Assembly: GCA_905178155.1 (NCBI GenBank)
Contig: CAJINV010000018.1
Location: 724,609-788,608, forward strand
From: Amoebophrya sp. A120
Lineage: Eukaryota > Protista > Dinoflagellata
Direction: 5' to 3'
Length of the DNA: 64,000 nt
Part shown: in pieces, positions 1 through 64,000 of the stretch
How positions within the stretch are numbered: position 1 is the first letter of the stretch
Layout of the letters: each line of letters starts with the position of its first letter
The notes under the pieces: generated by a model
Databases searched by the model: none
Seen by the model: the letters and a program-made list of their open reading frames with translations, nothing else
Told to the model about the DNA's origin: nothing
Position numbers and translations under genes: made by a program

Positions 1-1800
1 GATACAGTTCTTGGTTTTGGACTTGATTTTTTCTTCCACGAAGGATAATTCCGGTTCCACCGCTGCGTCCAGGAGTACGCTGAACTGAAACGCCAAGCTT
101 GGGATTCTTCACCAGGAAAGCGGACCAAGAAGAGCAACTACGCTTTCTTTTACAGGAGGCTATGGAGGTGGCGCTGCTCGCTTTTCTACTAGTTCGTCCG
201 TTTAATACTCCCGTAGTGCAACTTCTTGATGATGAGCAGCAGCTCCGGGTTGAAGTTGATTTCCACCAGGCCGCGCAGATGAGCCAGGCTTCCGTGGCCT
301 CGTCCGCCTGTCGATCGCGGTATTCTGCTGCGCAAGAAGCTTGAGCACGAAAATTCCACCAGATGTTGTGCTCTTCTGTCGTCCGCTCGTGAACGACGAC
401 CAGCAACGGAAGGTCTATGGAAGTGCCAGAATGGAAATCCTCGACGTGGAAATAATTTGTGATGCATGACATGCGACGCAAAAAAGACTGCATTGCAGAG
501 GACGCAATGGAGGCCGACTATTGTCCTTCCACGGGTTAAGAATTGGAGTGCTGATTAGCACGAGAGAAGGGCGTCCCTTTGCGTTAACCAGCATGACAGA
601 CATGCTTTGAGTGCCCGGGAGATTTGTCATGCGCCGCCCAGAAGTGGCGCTTCAACTGGAGTGCTTTTCTGCATTACAAACCATTTCCACTTTGAGGACT
701 TCCAACCTGAGGCTTTCATAAGGTCGCTTCAGGTTGTATACACGACCTTGTTGGCCACGTACTACTGCAACTACACGTAGAAGTAGTCCAAGCCTGGTCT
801 TGCCACTGACGTGCTGTACGGAAGCGCGCAGGAGCAAGTATCCTGTGCAAAAGTATCGCAATGATCGTCCTAATCGCAATCATGCAACACAAATGTCACT
901 CATCTTTAGCTAAATCGCCCATGACAAATGTGACAAATTCCATTTGTCATCAACATGCTGAGCTAAAGATTTGCATTCTGTATATTTTTACCTACATACT
1001 AATCCGATACTTTTCCAATTCATACGAAGTCTTGCAAACCAAAACTTCACGCTCGTGCCTGTTTGCCGACAGCTCCGTTCGTCCCTCTCGTCGTGCTGAT
1101 AGAAAAGACTTCCACCTCCGCGACAAGTTGCTTGTTCCTCCGACCACACTGCGAGAAGTTCGTTGCAGAAGGTCCTCGCTTTTTTCCGTGATGTGTTGAA
1201 GTCGTCCACGACCGCCAGGGCGATGCGTTCTCCTCGCTAGATAGGTACTAGACTGGCCCTGATTTTTTCGCGAGCAAGTCGAACAAGTTGTGGATGATGG
1301 TCGTGACGAACTAGGACGACACCAGCAACCACCGCTCGTTGGATGAATCAAACACGGTGTGCCACGCCGCGTCTGCTTGTGCGTGACCAAGGAGATCTTC
1401 CCACCTGCTCGTTGTGCAAGAGGTAGAGTAGAACCTCGTCCGCGCTCTTCTCGCTTGTCCTATTTGTTGCAGACCTGCACGACCAGCTTTTTCTAGTACT
1501 ACAGCTTCTTCCCCGACCAGCGGCACGACACGACAGGTTGTTTCCTTCGTGGTGACAGCTGTTCAGCAGCTCAAGAAGAATACAGCACTTGAGCTTCTTT
1601 GCAAGAGCTCGTCCTCTTGTTGACCAAAAAAAAAATATTCTACAGAATTTTTTCAGATGAATGTGGTCTTCTTTGTCTTCATCCTCGGGGCGAGGGGAGG
1701 ACAAAACTCCAGCAGAAGCTACGATGCCAACATTCAGAGGGGAAGAACTTGTTGTAGTTGTTCTATGTGCCGTACGACGCTGTAGCTCGTGCTCATCATC
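1..1800. other. Probable fragment of another intron-rich gene, strand and product unresolved
   Basis: Exon-like composition interrupted by introners 416-720 and 839-1024; no recognisable protein could be assembled. Confidence 0.3.
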
Positions 1801-3706
1801 TACACAGAGAAAGAACATGTTGACCCCAGCTGTTCTCTTTCATTTAAAGATTTTTTGGATTCAACTATCTGCCTTCGCGTGTGTTTCTTTTGGATCGTAA
1901 TGCAGCGTTCGCTCTCGTACTCGTTCTTGGGGCCAGTGATGCAAAAGCATACATAACTTTTATGACGCCTACTACGTAGCTCAGGAGACGAAACGCAGTT
2001 GTCCTCGGGGCAGTTACTTCGTGAGAATACTGCTTGCCAGTATGCGGCTCGGAAAAAGTGGCCCTGATATTATACTCATACAATAAATTGAATTTGAAGA
2101 AACAACAAGTCCAGAGCCAAACGTGCATTTGACTTTGAGGTCACATAGAAGGCAGCAAATTAGCTTGAACTTCTCTTTACACGCTGCAGAAATAACGTTT
2201 ACGTCCCAACAAAAAAAAGCTGATTCTCTGACGAGTTCGTGGCACACTGCGCTGGAGCTGCACGAGCAATCGTGCTGACGGATTTCTTTATCTTTTTTAT
2301 TTCCCCAAGAAACTACAACAGTAAGCGCGACTGGCTCTATTTTTTGTACTCCTTATTACACGCCCATCTACGTATTTCTCTTATCGCTGAAGAAAGTGTC
2401 AAATAATACCGGCGGAACACAGAGAGACAAGCAGTCGGGACCAGGCCGCAGAGGCTTCAGCCGAGGCACTTCATCTCCGGCGCACGATCACAAAAGGCGA
2501 GTACTAGCACAAACTACAGTGCGTGCGTGCGCGTGACCTACTCAGAGATTCTTACCGCTGCGCTGCAGGATAAGTGAGTAGCGCGCGCGGAAACGGAGCA
2601 GAAGCAGCTGGGCGCGCGAGGGCATGCGCGTAGCCCTGACCATCGGCGCTGCAATTATTTGACGAGGCTAGCCTTCTCCTTGCATTGATTATCTTGTACG
2701 AGCAATCAAAAATAGCCTGCTCGAGTTTCTTATTGATTCTTTTATGACAAGGACCAGCGTGCTTCATCAATTGTGAAAATTTATACTGGTTACCAGTATC
2801 TTTAATGCTTGGGAGCCGAAGCAAGTCGTGAGAACGTTACAAACCGGGCACCACTTCTACGTACCATTTTCGTTTTGCGCGTACGACGTGATCGTAGGTT
2901 TCGCGCGACATGGGCGGGGTTGTGTTTGATGTGTTACCAGATTAGGATATACGAAAATCAGTCGTGAGTGAGTAACTGTTTCTTTGACGTAAAGTCAAAA
3001 TCAATTCTATGCTTAAAGCTCTTTGGCTTTCTCTTTGGCTTTGGGGCTGGGACCACCATGTATGATATTTTTAGTTTCGATTTCATCTTGATTCTTTTTA
3101 CGTAAATTGTGCGTATGCAACTTTTTCACTTTTCGACGCATGCTCGTCACTGCAAAAAAAAAAAGAATACAGAAGCTCGGTCTAGTGTTCCTGTTCGGTC
3201 GCAAAAGGTACAGGTAGGAAAAAACTGAGTATGCTCTGCAAAAGTAGTATCGCACTCGAATATATTGCAGCCTTGCATGACAAAAATCTCTACCTGGTAG
3301 ATCAGCATTCGAAATTCCAGTTTTCTTCTTACCAATGTTGTGCTTATTTGTGATGCTACGAATTTACACGTGCTGGTACGATACTTTTGCAGTGCATACT
3401 AAGGAAAGCCCTGGTCTAGCTTACTGGCAGGCGGCGAGATGAAGATCGCCATAGTTTATCCGGAGGGACCTCCTAGATGAAGTTGAAATCATGACAAATC
3501 AGGGTGGCCGCAGCCTGTTTTAGTTTTGGCGGCTAGAGGTCATGTTGACCTCGAAAACGAGATGAAAAAATTGTCCTGATGATGAAAATGACAAATTCAA
3601 ATGAGTTATAACACACTTTTTGTTTTCTCAATGCTTTGAAAAAAATTCCCATTCCCTTCCTCTGCGTCGTGCAAAAATTCTGCGGCATGTTCATCTTCAA
3701 CGTCCT

Positions 3707-6700
3707 TTATGCGCAGTGATTGAGAAACAGGACCTTGCAGGCGTCCATCTCTTCCCGGCTCCCCGAAAGCTGGATTTCCGTGGAGTCCTTAAGCGACACG
3801 ATCAACTTCGTGCGTTCGTTGTCGGTTTTGTCCGTGATCGCCACATCGTAGTCGTCTTTTGCGGCAAAATACCACTTGTAGTGCTGGCGCGTGGTGGACG
3901 AGGAGGACGAGAGCGCATTGCTACCGCCGAGCATTTCCGTGTTGGTATCGAACGCCGAGGACTGCACCGCCATGCCGTATTGGTTTTGGCTTTGCACCAC
4001 TATGCGGCAAATAATGTACGCCTCCGTCAGAATCACCTCGGATTGGGAAACCTTGTTAAACCGGTGCGCCAGTAGCGCGTCCTCGCAGTTGAACGCCTCG
4101 GCCAGGAAAAGCCTCACCTTCGCGTGACCCAGAAAGTACGGACGCAAAACGCGATCCTCACCGTAGAGCGACCGGGGAAGACGGATTATGGCGCTCTCAA
4201 CTGTTACACTCTCAACTGTTACATGAATTTGTGACGTTAGAATGGCAAAACTGAGAGGGGGAAGATTGCGCCTTTTGCATGACAGATTTGGCGCAGATTC
4301 TCAGCCTGTTTGGCCCTTCGGGAATCTGTCATGCGAAGCAGCTGAATCGTGTCGATTCTGATTGGGATTTTGCATGACAAACCATGTAACAGCTGAGACT
4401 GTAACGTTTGAGAACGCCATACGGATCCGGGGAATGTTGCGAGCCTGAGGATGAGAAGGCGGTACGGTAGTTTGTAGATCGTTTGTTTTATGTTTTTCAG
4501 TGAGAGATCTGATAGAGATAGAGCACACGACCAGAAAGTCGACATCTTCGTGACCGGTTGCGGTTACGAAGAGAAATTTCCCTTACCTACGATAATAAAT
4601 CTCACCGCCATCATCTCTACAAAAAGATGAAATCTAGCTGCACGGTTGCTTTAGCTTTTCTTGTTTTTCTTTTTATGATTTTTTCGTACTTCTTCCTTCT
4701 TGGTCGCTCGTGTACTCCACCCCTGTGAAAGCATCACTATAAGTAAAAACCATGACTGGTATTAGAAAACGCCCTCACATACTGCTATCAGTGCCACCTT
4801 GTACGGGTGTCATAATTTTTCTACGAATGACTCGTAGTGGTCTTAGTTGTACCTTCTGTCGCAAGATAGTGTCGTCTACCCCGATGGCCTGGTCACGTAT
4901 GCCCTCCATGACGGCTTTCAGCCCTTCGCCCACCCCGATAATGGGTTTCGCGAACAGTCCCGCCACCTATCCGAGTGCACAACTGCCCCTCGACGTCCCA
5001 CTGCATTGTAGTAGTGCAATAGCAACAAAAATGGAAAAAGCGTTGGCAAGTCAAGACTGCTACTGCAGGAGCTTTTGCATGACAAATTCACACGGGCTGA
5101 CTCAGTGCTGTCTGGGAAGCTGCCGGCTTCTGTGATGTTCATGCCACAAATGGAGGCAAAAGAAAGCTGTATATTGTTTGCATGTTGACTAATGAGGAGG
5201 GAGTAGAAGGGTTGTGCATTTTCATACCACCCCGCGAGCGGTTCCCGTAGCTACGCGCTCCAAGGACCGGTCCTCCGCCGTTATGAATAAGAAAAAAGTG
5301 CTAGTACAGTTACGCACTGTGTTCTTGCAGAACAACCTTTGTCATGCTAGAAATAGACGTTTCTTGTTGCAGCCCTCGTTTGATACAAGTTGAGATTTTT
5401 CTTTTTTGATACGATCGCTGCACAACAATTATGGATGGAAAACTGCGAAATGTTTCATACCTATATATAAAGTACTAGCTAGCACGGCCCGGCACTGTTT
5501 TGAGCAAGATGGCGACCATTCTTTGCATTTTCTGGCGTCCCCACTAGCACGCTCGGACCGTGCTAGTGGGGACGCCAAAAAAAGCAACCCAGCTGGTTGC
5601 CGCGTGCTTTTGGAACCTACTTATGCTGGCCAGTTTCGAAATATGCGGCTCATTTTTTGGATATATATTCACTTTCTCGCCCGCATAGGTTCCAAAAGCA
5701 TGCGGCAACCAGCTGGGTTGCTTTTTTTGGCGTCCCCACTAGCACGGTCCGAGCGTGCTAGTGGGGACGCCACAAAATTCCAAGAATGGTCGCCATCTTG
5801 CTCAAAACAGGGTCCGACCGTGCTAGCTAGTACTTTATAGGTATGAAACTTCTCTACATTTTCCATCCCTAACAACAATTGCCAGGTTTCCCTGTCATGT
5901 AAAGCAAGTTTGTGTTGCTGAAGGTACAGCTGCAGCCAACGCGTAACTGGACTGACTTTCTTCTTCTTGGGATAGCCGTTGCAGCCTGGTACGGTTGACT
6001 GAATACGCCCGTGATACCGTCGGCGACGCCTGAGATAAACGGGTTCGAAGAGGGTGACCTTTTGCTTCAGCATAATTTGCTGGACATAATATGTCCTTGT
6101 GTGGAAAAAGGAGGACTAGAAGCAAGGGCTTTCAGCTTGGTTTTGCATCGGAGCAGGAGCCCTACCAAGCAGCCCTGCTGAAAAACATCAACGAAATCTT
6201 TATCTTCATGACACGACGACTAGCGACGTAGTTCCTTGGTACTACTATACTACTCGCACCCGTGGAGACGCAGAGGACCCACGAGAAAATGTAAATGTAA
6301 CAAGTGCTATATGCATATAGCTTCAGTTCATCAGATTCATCGCGAGCCTAAAACTTGATCGATCTTTGTTAGTCCTCGTGTAGTACCTTTGACTAGACTC
6401 TCGCCACCCCGGAGGAACCCATCGAAAATGGCCATGCTGTTGTTGCTATGAATTGCAAAAGTATCGCACTGGTATAAATTGCATCGCAAATTTTTTCAAG
6501 AAGAAAAATGAAATTTGTAATGCTATTTTAACCTGAAGAGGGATATTTGTCATGCACGATAGCAATTACTACAAAAAGTACGATACTTTTGCAGTGGATA
6601 GTCGCTCTGTGCTTCGGTATGGTGCCGCTCCCGCAGCTCGCTCAAGGTCGAAGGACCCTGTGCACCGCTATCCCGGCGGCGGTCCTCTTCCTCTGCGTAT

Positions 6701-9700
6701 CGGCTGGTCAAAGAGGTGACGTTCTGCGCCCTAGATTGGTTCCGGTTCTTTTTTCCCGCCGCGGAATACTGGGAATCCAGGGAAACGTATGGAAGCGGAA
6801 ACGAACTGCTTACTGCACCTCGCCTCGTCCTAGTACTCCTGCTCTGTTTCTGAGAGGCTAGGCCATGTTAACATGCAGGACAGACACGATCCCCAGACAT
6901 AGGCTTGCGACCTTCAAGAATTACAACCATTATACAAGCTTGTGAAGATATCTTAAGTAAAAAATTGAAGAGCCGCCATATGCAGAGCAAAGCAGAGAGG
7001 AGAATTCTTTTCGGTCACACCCTCCTGAAGATTATCTTTATACAAATCTCAAGGAGACCAGGAGGAGGCGCACGGGACGCGGTTCTTGCTTTGCTGCTTC
7101 TCATAGAATGGTTGACAGTCCCTGGTTGAAGTTTGCAATCAGTTTGGCGCCCGTGTCCGCGAGCCCGGTGGTCACATTCCGCATGAGCGAGCTCGTGCCC
7201 TTCCCGATGCCCGCCATGCCCTCCAGGCCCCCGCGCTGAAACCCCTCGTAGGGCTCCTTGAGAAACGCGTAGGCCCCGTCCCCCACGTAATTCAGGAAGT
7301 TCTGCGGGTTGCCAAAAAAGTTCGAGGACATAAGCAAGCGGTTCAGCTTATCAACTGCAAATGTGTCTGGGTCCGGAAAAATGGAACTTGTGATGCGTGT
7401 CTTGCCGTTCTAGAAAATTTGTGTTGCGTGAGCAGCAGGAGAGCCGCTTCCTTTGTTCTCATGCGCAAACGTAAATTGTAATGCGTGCTAGACATCAGAA
7501 AGCGTTTCAAAAGCTTGTCATGCGTGGCTGCCATGGCAAGCGTTGCAATCAGCAGCAAATCAGCATCACAGGTTTCCAGACCCAGACATATTTGCAATTC
7601 ATACAGCTGCATCACGCACTGCGACTTGTAGAATTCGGACATAGCTTTCAAGATCGACTGCATGCCACTGCCCTGGCCCAAGGTTTCCTTCAGCGTCATT
7701 TGGTCAAAGTATGAGAGTGGGCCGCAACTCCTCACGATATAATTGCCCCTATTTGATGTCATGCACTCTACCAAGTCGACTCTTCGCTTGCGCTTCCTTA
7801 TCCTTGCCTGTGGGACTGCTTGCGTGACAAGTTGACCCTGAAACGCAAACCACACGGCCGTCGGTATACGGTCGTGCGTGCATTCGTATTAGTATTGCGG
7901 AAGCGAGCACATTTATTTTTCCGAAGATACTGCTGATGCAAGTGCGTTTACAAATAAGGGGAGGAGGGGGTGGAGTAGTTGTGCTCAAATCTCATACGAA
8001 GTCCAACGGGCAGGACTCAACTCCCGACATGAAGGTCAGCACCTTCGTGAGCAGCGCGTTCCTATCCACTGCAAATATGTCTGGGTCTGGAAGCGCGAAA
8101 GTTTGTCATGCTCGGCTAGCATGACTCTCAGGTCTCTCATGCACGCTACCCAAACGTAGCACCAATTTTCTGTCATGCAAAAACGCAGTTTGTTATGCTA
8201 AATAAACAACACGTAGCAAGTCAGAAACTTGTCATGCTGAGCCGTCACTTGTGGCAGCCTCATGATACGCCACTCAACATCACAAGTTTCCAGAGCCAGA
8301 CATTTTTGCAATCCATAGTTCCGGAGGCCAAATTGCGGCTCCTCGCCCGGGTCGAAACTCGCAGTGAGCTTCATGTATCCTGTGTAAAAACGTCCCCACC
8401 CCAGAGTTGTCATGCAAATGCGCAATGGCAGGAACATCTGTAATGCGCATCTCCATGCGAGGCATTTCCAATCGTGTTTTGACGTTTGTAATGCTGGAAA
8501 CAGGATGAGGAAGTGGCTTTCTCATGCGGCTTTCCTTGTTAGCCAGCACCACGCTGCAGATGGAAACTTGTCATGCAGAACTCCCAAAACTTAGGAATTT
8601 GTGTTGCAGACTTCCCATCTTGACTATGGTGTGGGAAAGTTTTTACATAGGATATCATGTGGTCAAACTTCAGGTCTTGGAAAAAGACCTTGACCAGCTT
8701 CTGCACCTTCGACTGCAGGTTCGGTTCCTTCCAGTTTAGGTGACCAAAAAAATCAGCGAAAGTCTTGTACTGCGTCTGCTGTTGCAACGATCCGGAGTGC
8801 GAGCTTCTGCCGTGCAGCCCGTGCCCAAAAGTCCGGTCTTTCATTATTAAAGTGAAAAGTGCCTCCCAACCCTGAAATTGCAAAAATTTGTGATGCGAAG
8901 TTTCCAAATGAAAACTTTTTGTCATGCATGAAAGGAGTAATATGAATCTTTCTGATGCAGAGTCTAGGCGTGTATCGCATCGCTTGCATGCCGCTCTTGC
9001 TGGGGCCTTTTGCAATACAAATTTTTGCTATTCACGATCGGAAACCTGTGATGCTGCTAGATGCAAGAGGGCGAGTGTTTCATTTGGAAAGGTTTGCAAT
9101 ACAAATGTTCCCAAGTTCGGGGGGGGGCATTTTTCATTGTAATATTCATCTGTGAACGTACGACGTCGTGGTGCAAGGCTCGCCGGACGGCGTTTTTCGC
9201 CTTGTCCATTTTCGAATTTGCCGCGCCTGCTATTGTGAGGAAAAATCCCCCCATCCCATGTCAAAACGAAGTCTGTGATGCTGGATTTGCGTACACAAAT
9301 CAGCTTTCTCTTGCAGAAAGTGCTTGGCGGCATTTCCTAAGCCTGTTAGGGTATGCAGGAGGCTAGCAATAACGCATGGCAGACAGGTTTGCCGTAGCCG
9401 AAAGCGCATGACAGATTGGCTTTGGAATGCGCCACATGGCTCCTCTTGCCCTATAGGCAAGACAAAGATGATTTGTGGCCACAAATCAGCATCACAAATT
9501 TTTATTTTGATATGGGGAGGGGGGATTTTTCGTGCTGATACCTCCAGCCGAGGAAGACGAGCCAGGATGTTGCGAGGACGACCCACCTATGGAAAGTAAA
9601 AGTGTCTGGGTCTGGAAACTTGTAATGCTGCGTTGGGAATACAATAGTGAATGCTCTGTAATGCACAGGCAAGCATATCTGCGCTTCTTTGTGCTGCGTT

Positions 9701-12700
9701 GTTCGCATGACAAACTGTGCTTTTGCATGACAGGCAAAAGGGTCTCTTCTTGGACACGCAGATCACAACCTTTTTGGTCATGCCAGACAAGCATGACAAA
9801 TCTCGCAATCTTCCAGACCCACACATTTTTGCATTTGATACCACCTCCGGGCATCGTTCTTGCGCCTGCTTTATTACCCACCATACCCCCAGGTGGTCCA
9901 CCGCCAGCTGATAGCAAGCCGCCCGCCGTGCCACCGCCACCGGCGGGCGAGAAAGAGGTAGAGGCCCCACTTCCACCGCCTCCGCCAATCATGGCGTCTT
10001 CAATGGCAGCTTGGAACTTGTAGACCAGGGACAACATAATCTGCACCAGTTTCAAGTCGAACATGAGCAGCACCGGTTTGATTTTCAGCCGGACCTTGTC
10101 CAGATACAGGATGTCGTATTTCCCGTACCGTTCCCGAGTGTTGAACGCGCTGCTGGTCAGCGACTGGGCTGTTATCTTCGTTCGCTCCCGCACGTGGAAG
10201 TGCAAAATTGCCTCTGATTTGGTCTTCTCCTCTCGCCGTCTGCAGTATGGGAAAGGACAGAAAAGCGATGAAAAGTCAGGGAAGCGAGTTGTAGTTGAAC
10301 TTGAAATTGGGCTTTCACTTTCTACTTTTGCTGTCCGCTGTGCAGCAAATCCAAATGCAGAACAGATGACAGCACTAGTTTAGTAATCTTCGTAAACCTA
10401 ATCGCTTTCGCTTCCGCGCACACAAAAAATAAAAGATGCGAATGCAATGACAATGTCTGCTAGAAATACAACTGTATCTCTTGGTGTTGCCTCGTCAATA
10501 CTGAGGCAAGGTGCAGTATCAGCCTTGAAAACTACCCGTGTGGCGAAGAGGAAGACCAAATGCAGCCACCAGGGGTAGCGCATATATAGCAACAGACTTT
10601 ATTAAAACTGCACATAATTTCTAGTCATCCATGCTTTCTGACCAGCACATCACGACGCTTTGTCCCACAGGATATCTGGTTTTCGTTTGCGATTTGCCGC
10701 GCGCGCTCGTTGTCGACGAGCGAGGTTTCGGAGCTGTCTTGGAAGTTATGAGCTCCCCCGCGAGGACCCCCTCCCAGCATGGAAGATGAGCCGTCCACAG
10801 CCTCTTCCTGAATCGTTTCCAAGTGCAAATGTTGGGCCTGCACCAGCTGCTGGTGTCCACTTCTGCCACTACCAGGTCCAGCAGACGAACCACCCGAGGT
10901 GGAGCTGCTGCTGCCCCCGCCGCTCGCCCCTCCACCCGAGGACACCAGAATGCTCGGGTCCCGGGCCACGCACACGGGGAAGTGGGTGTCGCGCGCCTGC
11001 GTATCGAATGCAAAAATGTCTGGGTCCGGAAGATTCTGAGACTTGTCACGCACGGTTTGCATGAGCCATGATGTCTGTGATGCATGCCCTAGCATTACAG
11101 GTTTTTTGAGGGATTCTTGATGCCTACTCCGCATGACAAATGCCCTCTCCGCGTAGCAAAAATTAGAATCCTTTTGCTGCTCATGCAACACAAATTTTTT
11201 ACACATCCAAATGCGGCATCACAAGTTGAATTCTTCCAGACCCAGGCACTTTTGCTTTTGATACTGCGTGTCCAACTGCAAATCGCGGATGCTCAGGTCG
11301 TATGCATTGCAAATATGTAGTCTGTGTCTGGAGGAGGACAAGTTTGTCATGCACATTTTCCATGATCCATGATGTCTGTGATGTATGCCATAGCATCACA
11401 GATTTTTTAAAAATCTTCCTGATGCGCCTTCCGCATGAGAAATGCCCTGTCCGCGTAGCACAAATTGAACCCCTCTTGCTGGTCATGCAATACAATTTTT
11501 TTTGGAGTCCAAAAACAGCATGACAAGTTGCGACCTTCCAGACGACCCAGACATAGTTGCATTTGATAGATCGTACTCGTTGTGCGTTGGGTACACGTTG
11601 ACGCAGGTGTAGATCTCCTCCAAATACGCAAAGAGAATTTCCGCGTTCGCGTAGCTATCCACCAAATTCACATCACTTTGCCCGCTGTTGCGCGAAGAGG
11701 AGGACGAAGCGCCAGCGTTGTTTCGCGTTTGCAACAGCGCCTGTTTCGTCGTGTAGCTGTCGAGGGCGTCGCGGATCCGTTCAAAGGTAGTGGTCATCGT
11801 GACGCACGCGCCCTCTTTTCTGTACGAGGAAAGGGTGTTTTTCATGGCTTGAAAGAATTCGTCCGCCCAACTTTTGCTCGGCTTTCTCGTCTTGCCGACA
11901 AGGGAAATACCGATGCCCTTGCAGGCTATGCAACAGGAGAAATTTTCTACCGGTAAGCTATCCATAAGCATGTCTACATTCTTCACGCACTAATATTTTT
12001 ACAAGAAAATGCCTGCTTGCATCAAATGAAATAACTTGCGCAGCGAGCTCATTCAGGCGTCAAGTGACGAAGGCTCAGGTTTGGATTTGATGCCGTGGCG
12101 GTCAGGATAGGCATATGTTGAGATGATGCTGCGAAGTCCTTTTTCTTTCATGCAAGATCATGACCACCGGATGATGTTGATGATCATATACATATTCGCG
12201 ATGGCGTCTTCAACGTACGTACGTGCGCGGTAATATATTTCCCCGTCCTCCTGTGGATACAGTTGATTTTGAACACGCGGGCCATCGATCGGTGCGCCAA
12301 CGGGGCGAGCGCTGCGTAAGCAACTTGGTTCGACGTGGAGGGGATGTTCGGCGTGGCCGTTTGCCTCAGCGCTGGTCCAGAGGGAGCATGCTTCGCTCCA
12401 GAAGACGAAGAGATCTTGAGCCTGTTGCTCGCCTTCATCTTGTCCACATTTGAGGTCACGCTCGTATGGCGTTCTCAAATGTTACACTCTCAACTGTTAC
12501 ACGAATCTGTGATGCTAAAACAGCAACAGGAAAAGGGGCAAGCTTGCACGTCTCGCATCACAAATTTGGCACACATTTAGATGCTGCCTAGCCCTTCGAA
12601 AATTTGTGATGCGAAGCAGCTTGATCGCCTGGCGGCTCAGGGTCATTTTGCATGACAAATCATGTAACAGTTGAGAATGTAACGGTTGAGAACCCCATAG

Positions 12701-53088: not shown

Positions 53089-56000
53089 TCACATGACCCT
53101 TCGTCGCTTTTCGTCACCCCCACGCCCCCCTAGGCGATTGTTGTCACCACCTCGCATGCCGCCCGGCGGCCCGATGCGCTGCGTGTGGCCTCCGAAAGAG
53201 CCGACGCCGCCCCGCGGTCCTCCCATGTTTCCGTCCCGGCCCCGGTTGGCGCCGCCGCGGTTCCCCCGGCTGGCCCCGCCGCCGCCACCGCCCGTGCCCG
53301 GCGGGAACAGGTGCGGCATCTGATCCTTATACTTGTTAAAGGTCTTGGCCGCCCCGTCCACCACCTCCTGCACCACACGGTTGTCCACGACCAGTTGCAC
53401 GGTCCCGTTGCTTATGCCTTGCAAATATGTCTGGGTCTGGAAGAATGCAACTTGTGATGCAAATTTCAGACAACACGAAGATCTGTCATGCAGGAACAGC
53501 AAATGCGGCCCAAAAATTGGCACCAAAATGGGGGATTTGTCATGCTGATTAGGCATTGGAACACCTTCTCAAGACGTGTGATGCTACGGTTTGCATGACA
53601 GACCTCCTTGGTCATGATGCAAGAGCAGCATGACAAACATCTGCACTCATCCAGACCCAGACATATTTGCATTTGATATTGTTCAGGCTCATGAGCGGCT
53701 TCACGGTGCGGTAGTTAAAGAACTCCTGCGGGGTATCCTGAGTAAAAACATCCCCACACCAGAGTCAAGATGGGGATTTTGCAACACAAGCCTAGAACTT
53801 TTGGGGGTCACGCATCACAAGTTGCAGTCCGTAGTGTAGTGCAGGTTCGCAAGGCCAGCTGCATCAGAAATCCATCTGCTCATCCTGTTTACAGCATTAC
53901 AAGATCCAAAACACGACTAAAAATGCCTCTCTTGGCGATGCGCATTACAAATGTTCCTGTCATTGCAAATCTGCATGACAACTCTGGTGTGGGGACGTTT
54001 TTACTCAGGATACGGGGACCGGCACACCCCCGCGCTCAGGTGCTTGAACCCGGTGACCTTCTGCAAAATTTCCTCGAGCGGCAGCTGGCGGTCCGGAGAG
54101 CGGCGGAGCAGCACCGCGACCTCGCGCACGATCAAGATCCGCCGCTCCTCGACCTCCTCCGGGTCCGAGGCGTCCAGTCGGATCGGCTTCACGGGCTCCC
54201 GGTCCCCGCCCCGGGAGTTCTCACCCCTGTTCATCATGTTGTCGTTGTTGAAGCTCGCGTAAGTGCCACCGCGGGGAGCGTTGCGGTCGTCCATACGGAT
54301 CGTTCGTTGGGAAACTGGGTTCGTACCTGCAATAAACAAAATTCGCAAACATCTTCGCAAAACCAAAACATCAAATTCATATGGAGAAACACGTCGACGT
54401 CCACTACATCGTCTACAAGAACTTCCACGTGAAAATAAAAACCAGTCGGAAAATTATCGCATCTATACTTTGTGCCCGTCTGTCGCGACCATCTCTCCTG
54501 TCCCCACCCCGGTCGGGTCGGTCCCGGTCGTTGTTGCGGCCACGGTCCCTTCCGCTCGCGCCCGTGTTGTAAAACTTGTTCCAATGGGGGGTGTCGTCAA
54601 TGTCTGTAGATATTTAGTGTCGTTGGGTGATGTTTGTGATGTAGATGTTTTTGTTCAATATTCGTGGTTGTTCATACCAACATGTGATCAGTGTGTACCA
54701 TCATGATCGACACAAACATGGAATGTCGGACTAACAACCGGGGATTAAAATTCGTCAACTGAGTGTCGATAAAAAATAAAAACCAAAAGTCGTGGAGTAC
54801 GAATCAAAACTTACTCAGCAATTCATTCCTGGCTTTTCGGATCTGCTCAATGGTTTTGATGAAGACCAGACTATCCTCCTTGAGCGCCACATCCATGAGC
54901 TTGTCCGAAATCAAGGAAAACAGGTCCTGGTTCTGTTCCTGTGGTCAGTGGAGGTGCATTTAGAATTATTGTTTCTTCGATGCATTATACTGGGCATGCA
55001 GGACAGGAGAAACAAAAGCCCGATAAAGATAGATAGCCCCGTCAACATGAAGAAGAATGAATCTGAATCAGTTCCAAAAAACGCGGGAAATAATAGAAAC
55101 GGAGGGCTCAGCACCAGCTCTTGATGATGGTCTTAACTTTTCGAAATGCAAATGTAAATCATACCGGTGACGAGTTCATCTGTGGGCTCTCCGGCTTCAT
55201 GGCTTCCTGCTCCACGTTTCGCTCCTCCACATACTGTCCCGGGATGTTCGCGGACTCCCAAATATGCATTGCAAAAGTATCGCGCTAGTAGATGAACTTA
55301 ATTGCATATACAAGTAGTTCGCTCAGCATGACGAATTGAATTCGTCATGCTGATTTACCTGAGGATCGGGAAGGATTTGTAATACGTGACTGCGATTACT
55401 AGCTACGAGTACGATAGTTTTGCAATGCATACCCTCCGAAGTTAAAGTCGTCGTCGTTTGCGAAGGGATTCTATCAAATGTAAAAATGTCCGGGTCTGGA
55501 AAGTTGGAACTTGTAATGCTGGTCTTGCATTCCTGTGAAATCTGTATTGCATGACCAAGCACTGTGGTGGCCTCTTCTGTCATACAAAAACGCAGTTTCT
55601 CTTGCGGAGTTCGTATGAGAAAGCGTGCTGCAGCCTTGCCCTTGTCATGCTTTCCTGCATAAGCAAGTGACCTCCTCTTGCACATTTTAGCATCACAAAT
55701 TTCCAGACCCAGACATTTTTACAGTTGATAGATTCGCGGACGGCAAGTTGTCGCCCCCATGGAGCTCCTGCGCGAAGCCATCGTCCACCGGCGCGCCAGC
55801 GTTGGTTCCAGCGGGCGAGTTAGACCCACCGTCGGTGTTTGCTATGACCTAGTACTCAGGTGTTTCAATCTCATTCGTTACAATAGAGTCCGAGTTTTGT
55901 CTTGCATAGCCAGAATCAGGAGAGACCCAGACCCACAGAGCGTTCTTGTTCCGCTTTTTGCAATACAAATCTCACCAGATTCTTATGAGGTCGTCTGGGG

Positions 56001-56842
56001 AGTTGTATCATGCCAGATGATCGCGCACTTTTTGCATCTTCATCTTCACAAATCTTCGCTTTTCTTGTAACACAGCTGAGAATGTGAAACAACATCTAAA
56101 CAAGCCATATTCGCAGCTGGTCGCTTCTTGCTCTTGGCGTTTTTGTTCTTGCCCAGCGCATTTTTGTTGAGAATGTTCCCGTCGCCGTCCACAAATCCGT
56201 TCGAAATCCCCAGAGCCGTGGCGACGCACGCGTCCTTGCAGAGCATGAAGTACGAATTATACTCCTTCAGGATTGTGGTCAACTTCTTCTCAAAACCCGC
56301 GGGGATCTTCGCGAGCCACTGCTTGATCTGTTGTAGTTGTTGAGTATTTTTCCCAGTAGAAGTCGTGTACTATTGGAGCAGGTTCCTTTACTGTCTTTCG
56401 CTTGCGTCTTGTCCAGACAATTTTACTTTCATTTTTGCCTTTCTTCAAGAACGTGGACGTGGTCCCCCTGCAAGATAATTTGCCCTTCCAGCAGCTCTTC
56501 TAGCTACGTGGTGGTGTGCAGCAACGACCAACGTGGACTTCCTATTAGTCGCGCATGCAAGACGAGAAATTTATCCTCTAAAATTTCTACAAGTCGATCC
56601 ATGACCATGACCAATCAATACCAATTACAATTACTCATCTGTGCAAATACTTACTAATTTTCGTTTATCCTGTTCTAATTCTACTACTTCTTCCAACTGT
56701 CATCTATTACCGTTGCATCCTCGCAAACAACTCCCAACGAGCAAAACCCGCCTTTGCCATCAACCACTCCGGAAATGGCTTGGGTCAGCTCCTCCTTGAC
56801 CTCGTTATAAATCTGCGCCTCGGGGGACAGAATCGCGGCCAT
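53089..56842 (-). CDS. Multi-exon hypothetical protein with Gly/Arg-rich (RGG) C-terminus, possibly RNA-binding
   Basis: Probable start MAAILSPEAQIYNEVKEEL at 56842. Exons include KQWLAKIPAGFEKKLTTILKEYNSYFMLCKDAC and EEVEERRILIVREVAVLLRRSPDRQLPLEEILQKV; the last exon ends ...SRGNRGGANRGRDG...PRGGVG...MRGGDNNRLGGRGGDEKRRRVM*. It is interrupted by introners 53413-53678, 53734-54012, 55263-55431, 55472-55730, 55843-56109 and probably canonical introns; the exon structure is not fully resolved. Confidence 0.65.
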
Positions 56843-57661
56843 TTTCAAACTTACACGTCGAATAAGATTATAGAATTGTAAAGATGGAACAAAGACAAAT
56901 GGGAAGGGCGCTGCTTAGAAATAGATTGGCTGATGGGAAATAGGGAAATAGAAACACAATGCTGACATGAAATCAAAAAAGAACTCTGCTCCTGTTTCCA
57001 CGCGTCGGTCCTGCTGAACGATTTCTTTCACTTTCTATTTGCTTCTACGTACGGTGTGACAACTTCGCTACATGTACAAATCCAACGAATCGTACGTTCC
57101 TGGAATGTAAGGTGGAGAAAAAGATGAACATTCAACCGTATAATTACATAGGGAACTCAATATGGACGTGAATAAAGAAAATTCTCCTCGGAAGATGAAG
57201 ATATTGGAGGCAATCTACTGTGGACTGTCTCCGATGTCTGCAATACAGCTGAGCCTGAGATTTCTTCGGACTCAAGGATCTTCACGCAAGGTGGAAAATG
57301 AAGCGCAGAAAACGGCGCAGTTGGAACGAAATTGCAGCATTTTTTGCCAAAAGTCAGTAGCTGTGATCCCGGCGATGTCGAAAGATTTTGTTCCATCGCA
57401 AAAAACTACAATTTCCGACAAGATGGATCCTGGTCGTGCTTGCTTCAGGAGCTTCTTCTATCATCACATATTATTTCCGGCGCAAAACTACAAAGTCGTT
57501 AAAAGTCAGCAAATAAGTCATGTAGTGATCTCGACTTCCAGCAGTTTGAGCAGGACGCAACCTGATTGAAGATTCTACTGCCAATCTGGCCCTACGCCTC
57601 TATACATTCCGTTGAAGATCCAGACTCGGTCAGAATTCGAATTGTCCGCGGAAAAATTCTG

Positions 57662-60600
57662 CTAGAAAGAGCAGTAGAAGTCGTGCAACAATTTTTCCTT
57701 ATTTCCATCTGGTTCTATTCTTTTGCTTTTTCCAAAAATCCTGACATCACCAGCTGCATTCTCGTCTGTTTTCATGTTTTCTCGGAATTTTCTGTGGAAC
57801 TCTTTTTCAAATTTGATCAAATTTGGAACTCCTAGCTCGATCAGCTGCTGAGTAATGAAAAGCTTCGTGTCGATACTAATTTTTGGATTGTCTCCAAGCC
57901 ACACACGACAGGAGCCTCCAGCAGATCTACTAGTAGTGCTGCCGTCATGTCGTCCCGGCCGCTCTCTTCCCGCCACTGCTCCTGCTCCAGTTGATGAAGA
58001 TCGCTCCTTCTGCACAATGTTGTTCTCCGTGCCGCTGCCACCCTTAGATAGAGCAAGAAATGCAGCCCGCTTCCGTGCATTTTCCAGTACTGCCGTGAGT
58101 AGCTTCACTGCTCCCGCGTCCGAAATTTCGTTTTTCGTCAAAAACAAATCTTGCATATCCACGAGAAGGGAGCATTTGACCGCACAGACACAAGACGTAC
58201 TACAGGTACAGGTGATGTTGACGTAGCATGACAAATCAAAAGCTCGTGTTTTCATATGTCATTCGTAATCACGAGCAGCGTGAGCAGTCTGACCATGGTA
58301 GGAATTTAGGTTGCCTAGTATGTGTGTGAAGACCTTTTTCTTGTGTTATTGAGTTGTTTCCACGTGCACTTCTTTCATCATTTTCTGAGTGTTGTGCAAA
58401 CTTGTCGTTGTCGTGCAGCGGTACTACATCAAAAACCAGTTTCTATTTCGTATTGCAGTCCCGAGTTTTCCCTGAGACACTCATCCGCTAAAAAGGCCAC
58501 CGCCTCGTCGTCGATCCTATTTTTCCGTAGCTCCAAAGTTTGTAGCGAAAAATTCCGCTTTAAACTACCCGCCAGGCGCTGGACCGCTTTCGGGTCCGAG
58601 ATATGATTGTTCGAAAGAAACAGGGACTTCAGTCCTACTCCACCAGGATTTATTTTACCAGGTCGTGGTCCAACGTCACCAGGAGCAGGTCCACGTCCCT
58701 ATCAACTGTAAAAATGTCTGGGTCTGGAAGATTCTGACATATGTCATGCACGTTTTGCATGAGCCATGATGTCTGTGATGCAAACCCTAGCAATACAGGT
58801 TTTCTGAGGGCTTCCTGATGCCTATTCCGCATGGCAAATGCCTTCTCAGCGGAGCAAAAATTGCATTCCCTTTGGTACTTATGCAATACAGATTTTTTTG
58901 GAATCCAACTGCAGCATCACAAGTTGCATTCTTCCAGACCCAGACATTTTTACATTTGATAGTCCCTGCTGTGGTACCAAGACATGGCAATCCATAGTAA
59001 ATTGTTCCTGTACACGACGTACAATAAATGCGGTTTCTGCATCATCATCATCATCATCATCATGTAGTGGACACCCGCTCCCAGCGCCACAGGTCAAGGA
59101 TCCCCTCCCCGGGGGGGTGGGCGAGGAAGCACTTTCGGCGACCTCATCATACAAAAGCCGAGCGCTACCACGGCAAGTCGCCCCAATAAAAGTACCAACC
59201 AGTCGGGAGCTGCATGGCAAAACTTGGCTTCGATCCTAGTTTAGCATGACAAGTTCCGCACTCCCAATTGGGGAAATTTGTGATGCATCTTGTACATCTA
59301 CGGGAAATTTGTATTGCATAATGGTCGACGAGAAACTCCAGTCCGCGGTCACCGCCTGCATTGTCGTTCAGGTTCAACGTCGTTATGTAGGACCCGTTTG
59401 GGGCGAAGCGGAGGAGCTTTGCAACGATCAAGAAGTCCAGGTCGGACAAGTTTCGTTTGTCCAGATTGATCGCATTAGACGATGGAGAATTAGAAACATC
59501 GAAAACATATCACGTGCAAAGGTGTGGCACTCGGTCGTAGTAAGTTGCAATACTGCCTGACAGATCTATCCGTCGTGTAGTACGCTTACGCCAATCAACA
59601 TATTATAGAAACGCCACTTTTCATGCCAAGCAAGGTGAAGCTTGTATAAATGCAATTTTTGCTCGTACTTCGATAAGTACAACTTCTGCAACGGATAAAA
59701 AACGGCGCAAGACGCAGGGAGGCGATGATCGCGATGCTTGCTCAGGATCTTCATGCGGGGGCGTAGTCGCGGTGCTGGGCGATGTAGAACTCTCCGCCGG
59801 GTGCATCGTGATCGGGATGCTTGCACCGTCGACCATTTTGTAGTTTTTCCCCCTTTGCCTTTCGTCCGGCGTCGTATTTATTCCAGGAGCGCCTTGAGCG
59901 ACATCGTGAGGACGATCCTTGAACACCTGTTCCTGGTCGTCATCCTGTAGCTCTCGATCCGCAAAAGTCCCCCTTTGCCTTGCGTCCGGTGTCGTGTTTA
60001 TTATTCCAGGAGCGTCTTGCACGACATCATTAGGACCTAGAGCTTTAACACCCGGTAGCATGAGAAGTTGCGCATTTGTAGTGAATTTTGCATGACAAAT
60101 TGCAGGCGGGTCCGCCGGTACTTTGTCCCTCTTGCCCTTCTGGGAAGTGCGTTCTGCACACCGCAGAACTCAAGGCTTATGCGGCGGGCAGCTTCTAGAC
60201 ATGGCCTGGGTGCCGTTCTTTGGCCATGTCTATTCGTCTCCCTGTGCTCGCATACGAGCACTGCAGCAGCCGCGGCAGAGACGCCAAAAAGAAAGTGCTG
60301 CGAAGCAAATGCAATTAGGCAAGAAGGCGCGAAGGCAAGGGCGAAAGGACCAGGCCGAAAGCTTTGACGCGTCTATCGGGCAGGTGCGTGAACTCTCCCG
60401 GCCTTTCCGGCAGAATATAGACGGGCTGAGGCCAGCCTCCATTGCAACATGTCTCCAGACATTCAAGCCGAGCCAGCCGCAACCCGTGAGAGCTACCCAT
60501 TTAGATGTTGACCCAGTGCCCCTCTCCTGTTGAGGCTTCGGCCCCCTCCCTCTCGACCCACTATGGACCCCGCAGAGGCAGTGTTGTATTGTGAGACCGC

Positions 60601-63148
60601 CACGGGCCGCCTTTGCTTCTTGGCAACGCACCCTGCAGCAAAGACGTGCGTCTCTACTTTAGGCTTTGACAGAGAGCGTCCCCATCCAAATGGCACCGCG
60701 CAAGTGCTAGCCTTTCAACTACCCGGAACACTGACTGCCTGGTGTCCTCCTCGTGTTCTTCATACGCCCCTTAATTCATGCATCTGCATCACGCCACGCA
60801 ATACAGATTCACTGCAAATTCACCCTTCTCTATGCTAACGACCGTTGAAGACATAAATTAGGACGATCCTCCAGCACCTGTTCGTTGTCGTCATCGTGTA
60901 GCTCTCGATCCGCAAAAGCCCCTCTGGCATTGGACGATGAAGAATTGGAAACATCGAAAACATATCATGTGCAAAAGTATATATAGCACTCGTAGTAAAT
61001 TGCAATACTGCCTGACAGATGATCTATCCGTGTAGTCTAGTTGCGCTTATGCCAATCAACATAGAAACTCCACTTTTCATGCCAAGCAAGCTTGTATAAA
61101 TACAATTTTATTTGCTCGTACGTCGATAAGTACTTCTGCAACGGATAAAAAACGGCGCAAGACGCGGGGAGGCGATCGCGTTGCTTGTTCAGGATCTTCA
61201 TGCGGGGGCGTAGTCGTGCTGGGCGATGTAGTCTCCGCCGGTTGCATGATCGGGATGCTTGCACCGTGGACCATGCTGTAGTCGTGTTTCCCTCTTTGCC
61301 TTTCGTCGTCGTCCGTCGTCGTCTTTATTCCAGGAGCGCTTTGAGCGACATGATCATGTTCATGCTGGTCGTCCATTTCTTTGTCACCTACTTCGTGTGC
61401 TTCCCTCGACCCAACAACTGAAGGTGAATTTTCTCGCGAGCTCTCAGCACCACGCGGACGATCCTTGAACACCTGTTCCTGGTCGTCATCCTGTAGTTAT
61501 CCTGTGCAAAAGTATCGCACTCGTACAAATGCAAGTCTTGCATTACAAATCTTGTTCCCAAGGCAAATCTGCATTACAAATTTTATTTCTCATGCGGAGG
61601 AAATTTGTAATGCATTTATACGAGTACGATACTTTTGCAATTCATAGTAGCTCTCGATCCGCAAAAGCCCCTCTGCTGGGCGAAACGCTGCACTTTGTTA
61701 TGGATGTGTCAGAGTTGAAATCGACAAAGTTGAAATAATTTGTCATGCATAAAATGGATGCCAGTTGGAACCCAGTTTCTAAGTGGCGCATGACAAATCT
61801 TGGTGGCCCCTAAATCCAGTTTGTCATGCTGTTTAGGCAAAGAAGAGCGATTTTCTCACGCTACTCTAGCAGCTCGAGCTGTAGCCCCAAACAGGCTTAC
61901 AATCGGCTCTGCAACACACGTGCCGCGGGTCATGCATTTTATGCGTCGCAAATTATTTCAACTCTGACGATTTCAAACCTGACGCTTCCATATTTGTGAC
62001 GAAGCTCGTATACGTTCGCCGGACCGCACCGTCCGCATCGCACTGCAGAGCCGGTTATCAAATGCAAATATGTTTGTCTGGGCCTGGAAGTAGATTTGGG
62101 GAGTTGTTTGTCATGCAAATTGTACATGGCCTCCGATGCCTGTGATGCATTTTCTAGCGTCACAGCTTTCATCACAGAGTAGGTTTGCTCATGCCTCTTC
62201 TGCATGATAAAAAATGCCCTCTGTGAGCGGCAACAATCTGAGCGCCTTTGGCCTCTCATGCAATACAGATTTTTTTGTGATCGACACCTAGCATCACAAA
62301 TCCAATTCTTTCCAGACCCAGACATATTTGCAATGCATACCTCTAGCACCTGTTCCTGGTCGTCATCGTGTAGTTATCCTGTGCAAAAGTATCGCACTCG
62401 TACAAATGCAAGTCTTGCATTACAAATCTTGTTCCCAAGGCAAATCTGCATTACAAATTTTATTTCTCATGCGGAGGAAATTTGTAATGCATTTATACGA
62501 GTACGATACTTTTGCAATTCATAGTAGTTCTCGATCCGCAAAAGCCCCTCTGCTGGGCGAAACGCTGCACTTTGTGACGAAGCTCGTATACGTTCGGCGG
62601 ACCGCACCGTCGGCATCGTACTGCAGAGCCGGTGGCTCGCCCGGTAGCTCCTCACAGAAATGCTCCAAGGCTTCAATCACCTGGCTCACGGTTTCGTTGG
62701 GTGCCTTCAGCTTGGCAAATTCGGACGGGATGACGAATTCGACGCCGGCGGGCGGTTTTGACGATGAGGATGTTGACGCTTGCATTTGCGAGGACCCAGT
62801 GTGAGATGTTTGCTGGACTTCTTCTTGTCCATCGTTCTTGTCGTCCCCTCCGGATTCGGATGTATTGCCTCCTGTAGGAGTAGGCGGAGCCCCCGGGGAC
62901 GAATTTTTCTCGTCTGAGCCGCTAAGCCAGCGCCGGGCGGAGCCGGAGGTCGGTGGTGCGTTTGCGTTTCGCATCGGTCTCGAGGAGCGTCGTGCACCAG
63001 AGGAAAATAAATTACCGGCATGGGAAGCAGGAGCGACCCGCGAACCGGTGCTCCTACAGCTGGTGGTCGTGCACCCGACCAGAGATACAGAAACTCTCGT
63101 TGCATTTTTCAAATGAACTAGTCTGGAAGATGACACCAAAAGCGGCAT
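57662..63148 (-). CDS. RNI-like leucine-rich repeat protein with low-complexity, partly duplicated N-terminal region
   Basis: LRR units ITTLNLNDNAGGDRGLEFL (about 59350), LKSLFLSNNHISD and LQTLELRKNRIDDEAVAFLA (58480-58640), and LQDLFLTKNEISDAGAVKLL (about 58130); stop at 57662. The 5' extent and the use of duplicated exons (59500-62620) are uncertain. Confidence 0.7.
59041..59210 (-). mobile_element. Short (TCA)n-tailed insertion, SINE or 5'-truncated LINE-like, nested in family J introner 58989-59320
   Basis: Relative to the copy at 38955-39110 there is an extra about 170 bp starting with (ATC)7-8 and flanked by CTGCAT on both sides. Confidence 0.6.
59478..62628. repeat. Local tandem segmental duplications in the LRR gene 5' region
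   Basis: About 59478-59910 resembles about 60934-61350. The block CACCTGTTCCTGGTCGTCATCNTGTAGCTCTCGATCCGCAAAAG occurs at about 59924, 60875, 61470 and 62346. About 61470-62055 matches about 62346-62633 except for one introner. Confidence 0.85.
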
Positions 63149-64000
63149 CGGGCAGGAGACGCCAAAATTCTGATCACCCTCTTGATGCAGCAACTGCTAC
63201 TAAACTTGCATGCCTCCACAGACAAAAAAAGTCATCTTTATTATGGAAAACTCGCCATGAATCGAAAACTTTTCTGCACGCGAGAGGGAGGCAGTAGAGA
63301 AACAAACTACGTACTGCTTCCGAGTTACAGGACGAAGAAGACAGAACAAGAACAGCCCAACATAGTATGTAACTACTCGCGAGTTAGTTTCTCGGCGATC
63401 GTCCTCATTTATTTTTCCATCACGTCGTCGAGCAGAAACATTCATTCGCATCGATCATGCTTTAAACGATTATGATCATTTCATCCTACAAGTAGCAGAA
63501 ACATCAAGCAGCGAAAGGAAAGCGACAGGAAGAGTCGTCTGGTGGCATTAGCTGCTGCATTCTTGCTATTGTACGGGTCCGCTTCCTGTTCTAGCAACCT
63601 GTCATTCAGAAGCAGATCGACGAAATTAAAAGATGTAAAACTCCTGCACAGCGAAATTTGTTGGCGGGTGTCTACTTAGCACTATTGCGATACTTGCAGC
63701 AAAATTTCCACCAACGTATGATTTCTGTGGTTTTATTTTTTATACATTAGTTGTACTAGCACTTAACATCTTCAGTCGTCGTCTTTTGACACCCGCCCTC
63801 CCGCACCGACGAAATCTTTCCAGAATCGCAGGTCGTGCTTACCGAGAACCAAGCATTCGAAGCACATTCTGCAGTCTCCCAACAGGGAGAAAACCGTATG
63901 CATTGCAAAAGCAAAGAAAGCACTGCACCGCACTAGCAGAAATTGCATGACAGATTTTGCCAAGAAAAAAATTGGAATTTCTCATGCTGATTCACATAGA

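What the first reader, a model, noticed from the sequence alone, without database searches (positions are those of the whole stretch)
416..64000. A 9-mer, TTGT(C/A/G)ATGC / GCAT(G/T/C)ACAA, tiled through all introner families
Seen: families with unrelated TIRs and interiors carry many copies of this motif in both orientations, often about 15-20 bp apart (e.g. across 30385-30570, 22065-22120, 41657-41810). It appears rare in long exons and in the 6.5-kb insert. Inference: a shared binding site for one trans-acting factor (transposase, splicing adaptor or chromatin protein), or a set of complementary modules that zip the intron into a long rod. This could be the cis-code of the system.
Basis: partly seen in the sequence, partly recalled or inferred. 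Interest (0 to 1): 0.8.

Follow-up and report, generated by a model that had tools for sequence, protein, structure and literature searches.

The report
Shared spaced motif inside transposon-born introns
The small transposons that form most introns here share a 9-letter motif, repeated at a fixed three-helix-turn spacing and absent from old introns that are still spliced, so it is likely the docking site for the still unknown enzyme that copies them rather than a splicing signal.

Summary
The motif is real: 146 exact copies against 2.25 expected. Of these, 142 lie in 78 curated TAT…ATA elements with 5-bp target duplications (Amoebophrya A120-type introners), 1 in 24 kb of exon and 0 in the 6.5-kb insert. 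It occurs in 21 of 26 families. The claimed 15-20 bp spacing is wrong. The rule is same-orientation copies 31-32 bp apart, which held in 127 held-out elements from a second assembly, and the outermost copy sits 36-38 or 44-48 bp from the end. Motif sites change at 0.22 of the spacer rate on internal branches and 0.42 on tips, so ancestry alone fails. Paired copies show no compensation (5 seen, 10 expected), one family has only same-orientation copies, and three old element-derived introns with no exact copy are still spliced. That argues against an RNA zipper or splice code. Best reading (about 0.65): a double-stranded-DNA binding site for the shared mobilising protein, like subterminal repeats of hAT transposons and MITEs. 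No transposase was found and binding is untested. I found no mention of the motif in the papers searched.

The parts
416..62523 (.). 78 curated introner elements (109-327 bp, plus one 6630-bp nested copy): TAT(C/G)…(C/G)ATA ends, 5-bp target-site duplication; 26 families
14031..50222 (-). Host gene segment: a 6298-aa open frame appears when 46 elements plus 5 nt each are removed; gene unnamed (no Pfam family at cut-off)
34559..34667 (.). Shortest family (109-122 bp): two same-orientation motifs 32 bp apart (34591, 34623), so no motif-motif pairing is possible
14947..21576 (.). Short-family element with a ~6.5-kb motif-free insert that separates its left TIR from the motif copies; spliced out to the exact expected length
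10246..10674 (-). Old element-derived intron: TAT(C/G) ends kept, duplication decayed, no motif copy even with 1 mismatch, spliced
11927..12259 (-). Old element-derived intron, no motif copy even with 1 mismatch, spliced
13676..14092 (-). Old element-derived intron, 0 exact and 1 one-mismatch copy, spliced; its junction helps place the 5' splice site just before TAT
53413..58961 (-). Seven elements whose removal (element + 5 nt) is seen as RNA-contig joints, and four GT-AG introns with 0 exact motifs
61699..61992 (.). Element present in one copy of a local duplication and absent from the other (empty site near 62570, one copy of the 5-bp target)

Best explanation
The 9-mer (Y-T/C-TGT-V-ATGC, never T at V) is a conserved, regularly spaced internal repeat of non-autonomous TIR transposons that are spliced as introns, and it is likely a double-stranded-DNA binding site for one mobilising protein (the transposase or an obligate partner) shared by all these families. 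Shown: elements insert with a 5-bp duplication in either orientation; motif copies are constrained while spacers drift; copies sit 31-32 bp apart and at two preferred distances from the ends; splicing continues in introns that lack the motif. Inferred: several DNA-binding domains load on one face of the helix (31-32 bp is three B-DNA turns) and help bring the TAT ends into an integrase-like transpososome. Only copies with an intact array found new lineages, and after insertion the motif decays about neutrally while the TAT(C/G) ends are kept as the splice cue.
For: Enrichment: 141 exact copies in elements against 1.5 in shuffles. Constraint: the motif/spacer substitution ratio is 0.22 on internal and 0.42 on terminal branches, lower on internal branches in 9 of 9 families (217 copies; Fisher p=1e-7). 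This is not a CpG-sink effect, since spacer TG/CA columns change at 0.050 against 0.0105 for the motif. Decay after insertion: motif tip rate is 0.038 per site per copy, against 0.050-0.059 mismatch between the two target-duplication copies. Rare elements have duplication mismatch 0.14 and 3.5 exact copies/kb, against 0.056 and 9.3/kb in large families. Three old introns have 0 exact copies and are spliced. Spacing: same-orientation 31-32 bp pairs score 8.9 against a null of 1.1 (max 6) in the window, and 5.2 against 0.9 (max 4) in 127 held-out elements of 15 clusters. The outermost inward copy is at 36-38 or 44-48 nt, and none is nearer than 30. No strand bias on the pre-mRNA (63:58). Precedent: Lemi1 binds Emigrant subterminal motifs (PMC1636448, abstract); Hermes BED domains bind subterminal repeats (PMC10368747, passages). 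[quoted passage not shown]
Against: No transposase was found. The long elements in the second assembly hold nested inserts, 44 long ORFs from its loci gave no integrase or transposase Pfam hit, and Farhat et al. report none in A120 (PMC7789003, section 16). There is no general 10.5-bp periodicity: 20-22 and 41-43 bp spacings are not enriched, and phasing to the ends is only modest (p=0.017). In window-only data, motif decay did not track duplication mismatch (p=0.42); it did in the second assembly (p=0.018). The tip ratio (0.42) is still below 1, and parsimony at saturated sites can bias the tip/internal split. 100 of 243 motif copies are predicted to pair with another copy, and interiors fold more stably than shuffles (only 8 shuffles each). 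The second assembly was selected by a motif-pair pattern and may be the same strain.
Confidence: 0.65

Rival explanations
1. A host DNA- or RNA-binding factor reads the motif to mark young elements for splicing, as a crutch in a spliceosome reported to lack U1, and becomes dispensable as introns age.
For: The motif is in nearly all young elements and in both orientations, as expected if elements must splice in either orientation. Tip-branch constraint has not fully gone (0.42). U1 snRNA was not detected in A25/A120 (PMC7789003, passage).
Against: Old TAT-ended introns with 0 exact copies are spliced. Elements at 14584, 23342, 55263 and 55843 have no exact copy and are removed in RNA contigs. 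The 6630-bp intron splices with one end 6.5 kb from any motif. GT-AG introns lack it. The tip rate is close to the target-duplication clock.
Confidence: 0.17
2. The copies are complementary modules that zip the intron RNA into a long rod.
For: 41% of copies (100 of 243) pair with another copy in predicted folds, and many interiors have z of -3 to -9. TIR arms co-vary (144 compensated against 80 expected, not corrected for phylogeny).
Against: Motif-motif pairs show 5 compensated changes of 201 against 10 expected, and other interior pairs 135 against 119. The variable base co-varies in 1 of 65 site pairs at p<0.05. It excludes T, which pairing alone would not require. The 109-122-bp family has only same-orientation copies. 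The dominant spacing is between same-orientation copies, which cannot pair.
Confidence: 0.07
3. Elements move through an RNA or cDNA intermediate, and the motif is read on that intermediate by a retroelement integrase complex.
For: A 5-bp duplication without base preference fits LTR-type integrases (own knowledge). Family 38 has Copia/Gypsy-like ORFs (PMC12130899, passage). Other mobile sequences are nested in elements.
Against: Elements have symmetric TIRs, insert in both orientations relative to the gene, and also lie outside the mapped coding frames. No LTR, primer site or tail was noticed at element ends (not searched systematically).
Confidence: 0.06
4. Common ancestry plus mutational homogenisation (template switching between inverted copies, CpG decay), with no function.
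For: The ends are related across families. One element (55263) has a perfected internal palindrome, as template switching would give. The motif is rich in TG/CA.
Against: Internal-branch rate is 0.0105 against 0.046-0.050 for spacers, including TG/CA columns. Families with different layouts share the 31-32 bp rule. T is excluded at one position.
Confidence: 0.05

Closest known systems
Amoebophrya A120 introner elements (Farhat et al. 2021, PMC7789003; Gozashti et al. 2025, PMC12130899)
   Same: TAT-starting inverted repeats with an A-run, short direct repeats, non-canonical splice sites, many families, tens per gene. Family 38 is noted with a 5-bp TSD and TA/TA termini.
   Different: In the passages, section 16 and supplement text I searched, these papers describe only the termini. 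They mention no internal motif shared across families and no spacing rule. Farhat et al. argue against transposase-mediated mobilisation in A120.
Subterminal transposase-binding repeats: Emigrant MITE/Lemi1 (PMC1636448) and Hermes hAT STRs (PMC10368747)
   Same: Short repeated motifs inside the TIRs of a transposon (both orientations in Hermes), bound by the transposase.
   Different: Here the motif is 9-10 bp, tiles the whole element, is shared by families with different inner TIRs and unalignable interiors, follows a 31-32 bp rule, and sits in elements that are also introns. Binding has not been shown and the protein is unknown.
Ginger2/Tdd integrase-like DNA transposons (PMC2836005)
   Same: TIR elements; TDD-4/5 make a 5-bp TSD.
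   Different: Ginger termini are TGTNR, whereas these are TAT(C/G). Most Gingers make 4-bp TSDs with target preference, whereas these show none. No integrase ORF was found here.

Membership tests
Amoebophrya A120-type introner elements | Inverted repeats starting TAT with a run of A further in | tested here: met
   Family-weighted logo T1.0 A1.0 T0.96 (C/G)0.94, A-rich at 11-14; detection required TA[TC] ends
Amoebophrya A120-type introner elements | Short direct repeat at the boundaries | tested here: met
   5-bp duplication; element+5 gives the longest ORF (5964 aa against at most 3819 for other offsets); empty site
Amoebophrya A120-type introner elements | Removed from mRNA | tested here: met
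   7 joints of element+5 nt; record-length arithmetic 381, 142 and 121 nt; runs X5-X7 are one sample, labelled RNA by guess
Subterminal transposase-binding repeats | Multiple short copies inside the TIRs, conserved over spacers | tested here: met
Subterminal transposase-binding repeats | Bound by the cognate transposase | not testable with these tools
   No transposase sequence obtained
Subterminal transposase-binding repeats | Needed for transposition | tested here: inconclusive
   Indirect only: stronger constraint on internal than on terminal branches
Ginger transposons | TGTNR termini | tested here: not met
   Termini TATG/TATC against PMC2836005
Ginger transposons | Gypsy-integrase-like DDE transposase | tested here: inconclusive
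   None in the window or in 250 kb of related loci; no whole genome held
Intronic splicing element (branch point or enhancer) | Strand-specific on the pre-mRNA | tested here: not met
   63 against 58 on the sense strand
Intronic splicing element (branch point or enhancer) | Retained in spliced introns | tested here: not met
   0 exact copies in 3 old element-derived and 4 GT-AG introns
Conserved RNA rod | Compensatory changes between paired copies | tested here: not met
   5 of 201 against 10 expected; 1 of 65 site pairs

The most novel reading that the evidence does not exclude
One undescribed DNA-binding protein, possibly host-encoded and separate from the catalytic integrase, recognises a helically spaced 9-mer array and licenses the many TIR families to move. 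This would be a multi-component, enhancer-like transpososome of a kind known from bacterial Mu/Tn7 (recalled), driving mass intron gain in a genome with no recognised transposase. The same end structure supplies TAT(C/G) as the body of a non-canonical 5' splice site.
Probability: 0.2. Interest if true: 0.85.

Novelty: new variant of a known kind. Interest (0 to 1): 0.58.

Why it matters
How Amoebophrya's tens of thousands of non-canonical introns spread is open, because the describing paper found no transposase in A120. A short motif shared across families, with a defined spacing, gives a ready bait for DNA pull-down and a signature for finding autonomous elements. The tests also separate two codes in one element: an internal one that appears to be needed for spreading, and a terminal TAT(C/G) one that is kept in spliced introns. 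That narrows where to look for the unusual splicing mechanism.

Tried and rejected
No whole genome is held, so all statistics rest on 77 window elements plus 198 automatically called elements from 80 loci (250 kb) of assembly JACKZZ01. Of those 198, six over 400 bp were left out of the family tests, and one identical tandem duplicate (62375) was dropped. Unconstrained EM drifted to a diffuse palindrome and was not used. A general 10.5-bp periodicity was rejected. The viral scan for the motif pair gave 29 loci, none of which looked like these elements; the two with a 31-bp pair lie next to a terminase-like phage gene. Motif-rich metagenome hits outside JACKZZ01 that I inspected (7) were tandem or low-complexity repeats. 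TIR patterns gave 0 hits in viral contigs and in prokaryote genomes. Runs X8-X10 (raw RNA reads) laid only on element copies from other loci, so they gave no strain polymorphism. No RNA holder is on record; X5-X7 are labelled RNA by guess. The six-frame read-through of the 6.5-kb insert gave no Pfam family and no terminal repeats. The host gene got no Pfam family at cut-off. The motif's resemblance to TIR positions 2-10 is the best register but still scores below zero, so it is kept only as a hint. Look-alikes recalled from memory and not tested: Sox-Oct composite site, ApiAP2 TGCATGCA, RBFOX UGCAUG, VATB 6mA context. Four look-ups of earlier findings returned nothing. Paper searches for the motif with Amoebophrya and for introner + subterminal + motif + transposase returned 0. 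Figures and two supplement files of PMC12130899 were not searched, and Roy et al. 2023 was not read.

Full report
SETTING. The window is dense with short elements bounded by TAT(C/G)…(C/G)ATA and a 5-bp direct repeat. I curated 78. Removing 46 of them with 5 nt each opens a 6298-aa frame on the minus strand (50222-14031). Over 21900-50000 an offset of 5 gives 5964 aa, and no other offset from 0 to 8 gives more than 3819. One element is missing from a local duplicate, which keeps a single 5-bp target. Contigs of run X5 skip exactly element+5 nt at seven places, and also skip four GT-AG introns. This anatomy matches the introner elements described for Amoebophrya A120 (PMC7789003; abstract, passages, section 16 and a supplement text search seen). 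The window's own source was not established, and no whole genome is held.

OBSERVATION. There are 146 exact copies against 2.25 expected: 142 in elements, 2 in fragments, 1 in 24 kb of exon, 1 in 14 kb of other DNA and 0 in the 6.5-kb insert. BLAST clustering of 77 elements gave 26 families. Cross-family hits are only 19-58 bp long, and 21 families carry an exact copy. The fuller motif is W-Y-Y-TGT-V-W-TGC with A-rich flanks. The variable base is C 282, A 174, G 109, T 2.

A SECOND DATA SET. A metagenome scan for a motif pair returned 132 stretches, giving 80 loci (250 kb) from one assembly, JACKZZ01. They hold the same families, mostly at 65-90% identity. Automatic calling gave 198 more elements with TATG/TATC ends and no base preference in the duplication. 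This set was selected by the pattern and may be the same strain, so elements matching the query were removed for the spacing test.

SPACING. Same-orientation copies lie 31-32 bp apart. In the window the family-weighted count is 8.9 against a null of 1.1 (max 6 in 300 simulations). In 127 held-out elements of 15 clusters it is 5.2 against 0.9 (max 4). Convergent pairs at 46-49 bp are also enriched (5.5 against 0.8; held-out 4.5 against 0.9). Spacings of 20-22 and 41-43 bp are not enriched, so this is a specific three-turn rule and not general helical periodicity. The outermost inward-facing copy is at 36-38 or 44-48 nt from the terminus, and none is closer than 30. Phasing to the ends is modest (p=0.017). 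31.5 bp is three turns of B-DNA, while A-form RNA would give 33 (established knowledge).

CONSTRAINT. Motif identity among copies is 0.69-0.91 against 0.52-0.70 for spacers. On trees of nine families (217 copies) motif sites change at 0.22 of the spacer rate on internal branches and 0.42 on tips, in the same direction in all nine (p=1e-7). Spacer TG/CA columns change at 0.050 on internal branches against 0.0105 for the motif, which excludes a CpG-sink artefact. The variable base changes like spacer. Ancestry alone therefore fails.

NOT A SPLICE SIGNAL. The tip rate of the motif (0.038 per site per copy) is close to the mismatch between the two duplication copies (0.050-0.059), which is a clock for time since insertion. 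Rare elements have more duplication mismatch (0.14) and fewer exact copies (3.5 against 9.3/kb). The per-element link between the two was significant in the second assembly (p=0.018) but not in the window families (p=0.42). Three introns inferred from RNA-contig gaps (10246-10674, 11927-12259, 13676-14092) keep TAT(C/G) ends, have decayed duplications, and have no exact motif. RNA contigs in X5 and X7 bridge 14578 to 22532 with 381 nt. That is exactly the length expected if five elements are removed, including the 6630-bp one whose left end is cut off from its motifs by a 6.5-kb insert (inferred from record lengths, as the letters were not shown). Four GT-AG introns have no exact copy. Both orientations are equally common on the pre-mRNA (63:58).

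NOT A ROD. In favour of a rod, 100 of 243 copies in 61 elements are predicted to pair with another copy, and many interiors fold better than shuffles (8 shuffles each). Against it, compensated changes in motif-motif pairs are 5 of 201 against 10 expected, and in other interior pairs 135 against 119, whereas TIR arms do co-vary (144 against 80, uncorrected for kinship). The variable base co-varies in 1 of 65 site pairs. The 109-122-bp family has only two same-orientation copies.

MECHANISM. Steps shown: TIR elements, 5-bp duplication, splicing, motif constraint, spacing, and absence from old introns. Steps inferred: the motif is read on dsDNA by several copies of one DNA-binding domain on one helix face, this promotes synapsis of the TAT ends by an integrase-like enzyme, and selection acts on copies that found new lineages. 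Precedents are Lemi1 binding Emigrant subterminal motifs cooperatively (PMC1636448, abstract) and Hermes BED domains on subterminal repeats (PMC10368747, passages). [quoted passage not shown] Ginger's TGTNR termini are not met here (PMC2836005, passages). I found no transposase: long elements contain nested inserts, and 44 long ORFs from the second assembly gave no such Pfam hit. Farhat et al. also found none in A120.

SPLICE CUE (side result). At imperfect duplications, RNA junctions restrict the 5' splice site to the last one or two bases before TAT (55257/55432; 13671/14094). The base before TAT is G 23, A 18, C 17, T 5. Two of the four GT-AG introns start GTATG or GTATAG, so TAT(C/G) may supply positions +2 to +5 of the donor. 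This rests on few junctions.

NOVELTY. The elements are known, and subterminal repeats are a known device. The motif and its spacing rule were not found in the passages and supplement text searched of PMC7789003, PMC12130899, PMC9860276, PMC11282704, PMC11453091 and PMC12005148, nor by searches. Figures, two supplement files and subscription papers were not seen. Verdict: real, apparently undescribed, most likely a mobilisation code. New variant of a known kind; interest 0.58.

Noticed in passing
window 55257/55432, 13671/14094 and other imperfect duplications: RNA junctions place the 5' splice site at N|TAT(C/G) or one base earlier, so the transposon end may mimic the host GTATG-type donor; the matching 3' dinucleotide would be nearly free.
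   Followed up: partly
window ~14970-21480: A 6.5-kb C/A-rich degenerate insert inside an introner. It has no Pfam hit and no terminal repeats; a 'DAS' stretch recalls a DIRS-type RNase H (recalled, untested). Its ends are multi-copy in the DNA run.
   Followed up: partly
window 5466-5832: A 367-bp near-perfect palindromic element nested in element 5282-5974, with different ends and no motif copy; a second kind of MITE.
   Followed up: no
window 55263-55431: A decayed 150-bp-family copy with a perfected 14-bp internal palindrome, as template switching would give; it is spliced in a high-depth RNA contig.
   Followed up: partly
window 59040-59205 and L089:5583-6397: The same CAT-microsatellite-tailed mobile sequence occurs in the window (truncating an element at 59210-59320) and nested in an element of the second assembly.
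   Followed up: no
window 59500-62620: A region of local tandem duplications with identical element copies (61498 and 62375) and an empty site; element 62056-62339 has non-matching flanks.
   Followed up: partly
window 50039-50456: A probable old element-derived intron that keeps TATC at its 5' (sense) end but has lost the TAT at the other end; 0 exact and 3 one-mismatch motif copies; splicing not covered by RNA.
   Followed up: partly
window ~7100-50650, minus strand: One very large gene (over 6300 aa) with more than 60 introns. Its N- and C-terminal stretches recall VPS13 (recalled); Pfam did not confirm this.
   Followed up: partly
window 25592-25918: The right boundary of this element is uncertain; an RNA contig suggests 25906. 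Both boundaries keep the frame.
   Followed up: partly
positions 2-10 of element ends: The TIR start is the best register for a weak motif-like half-site (centre at 6), 31 bp before the 36-38 class of outermost motifs; the score remains negative.
   Followed up: partly
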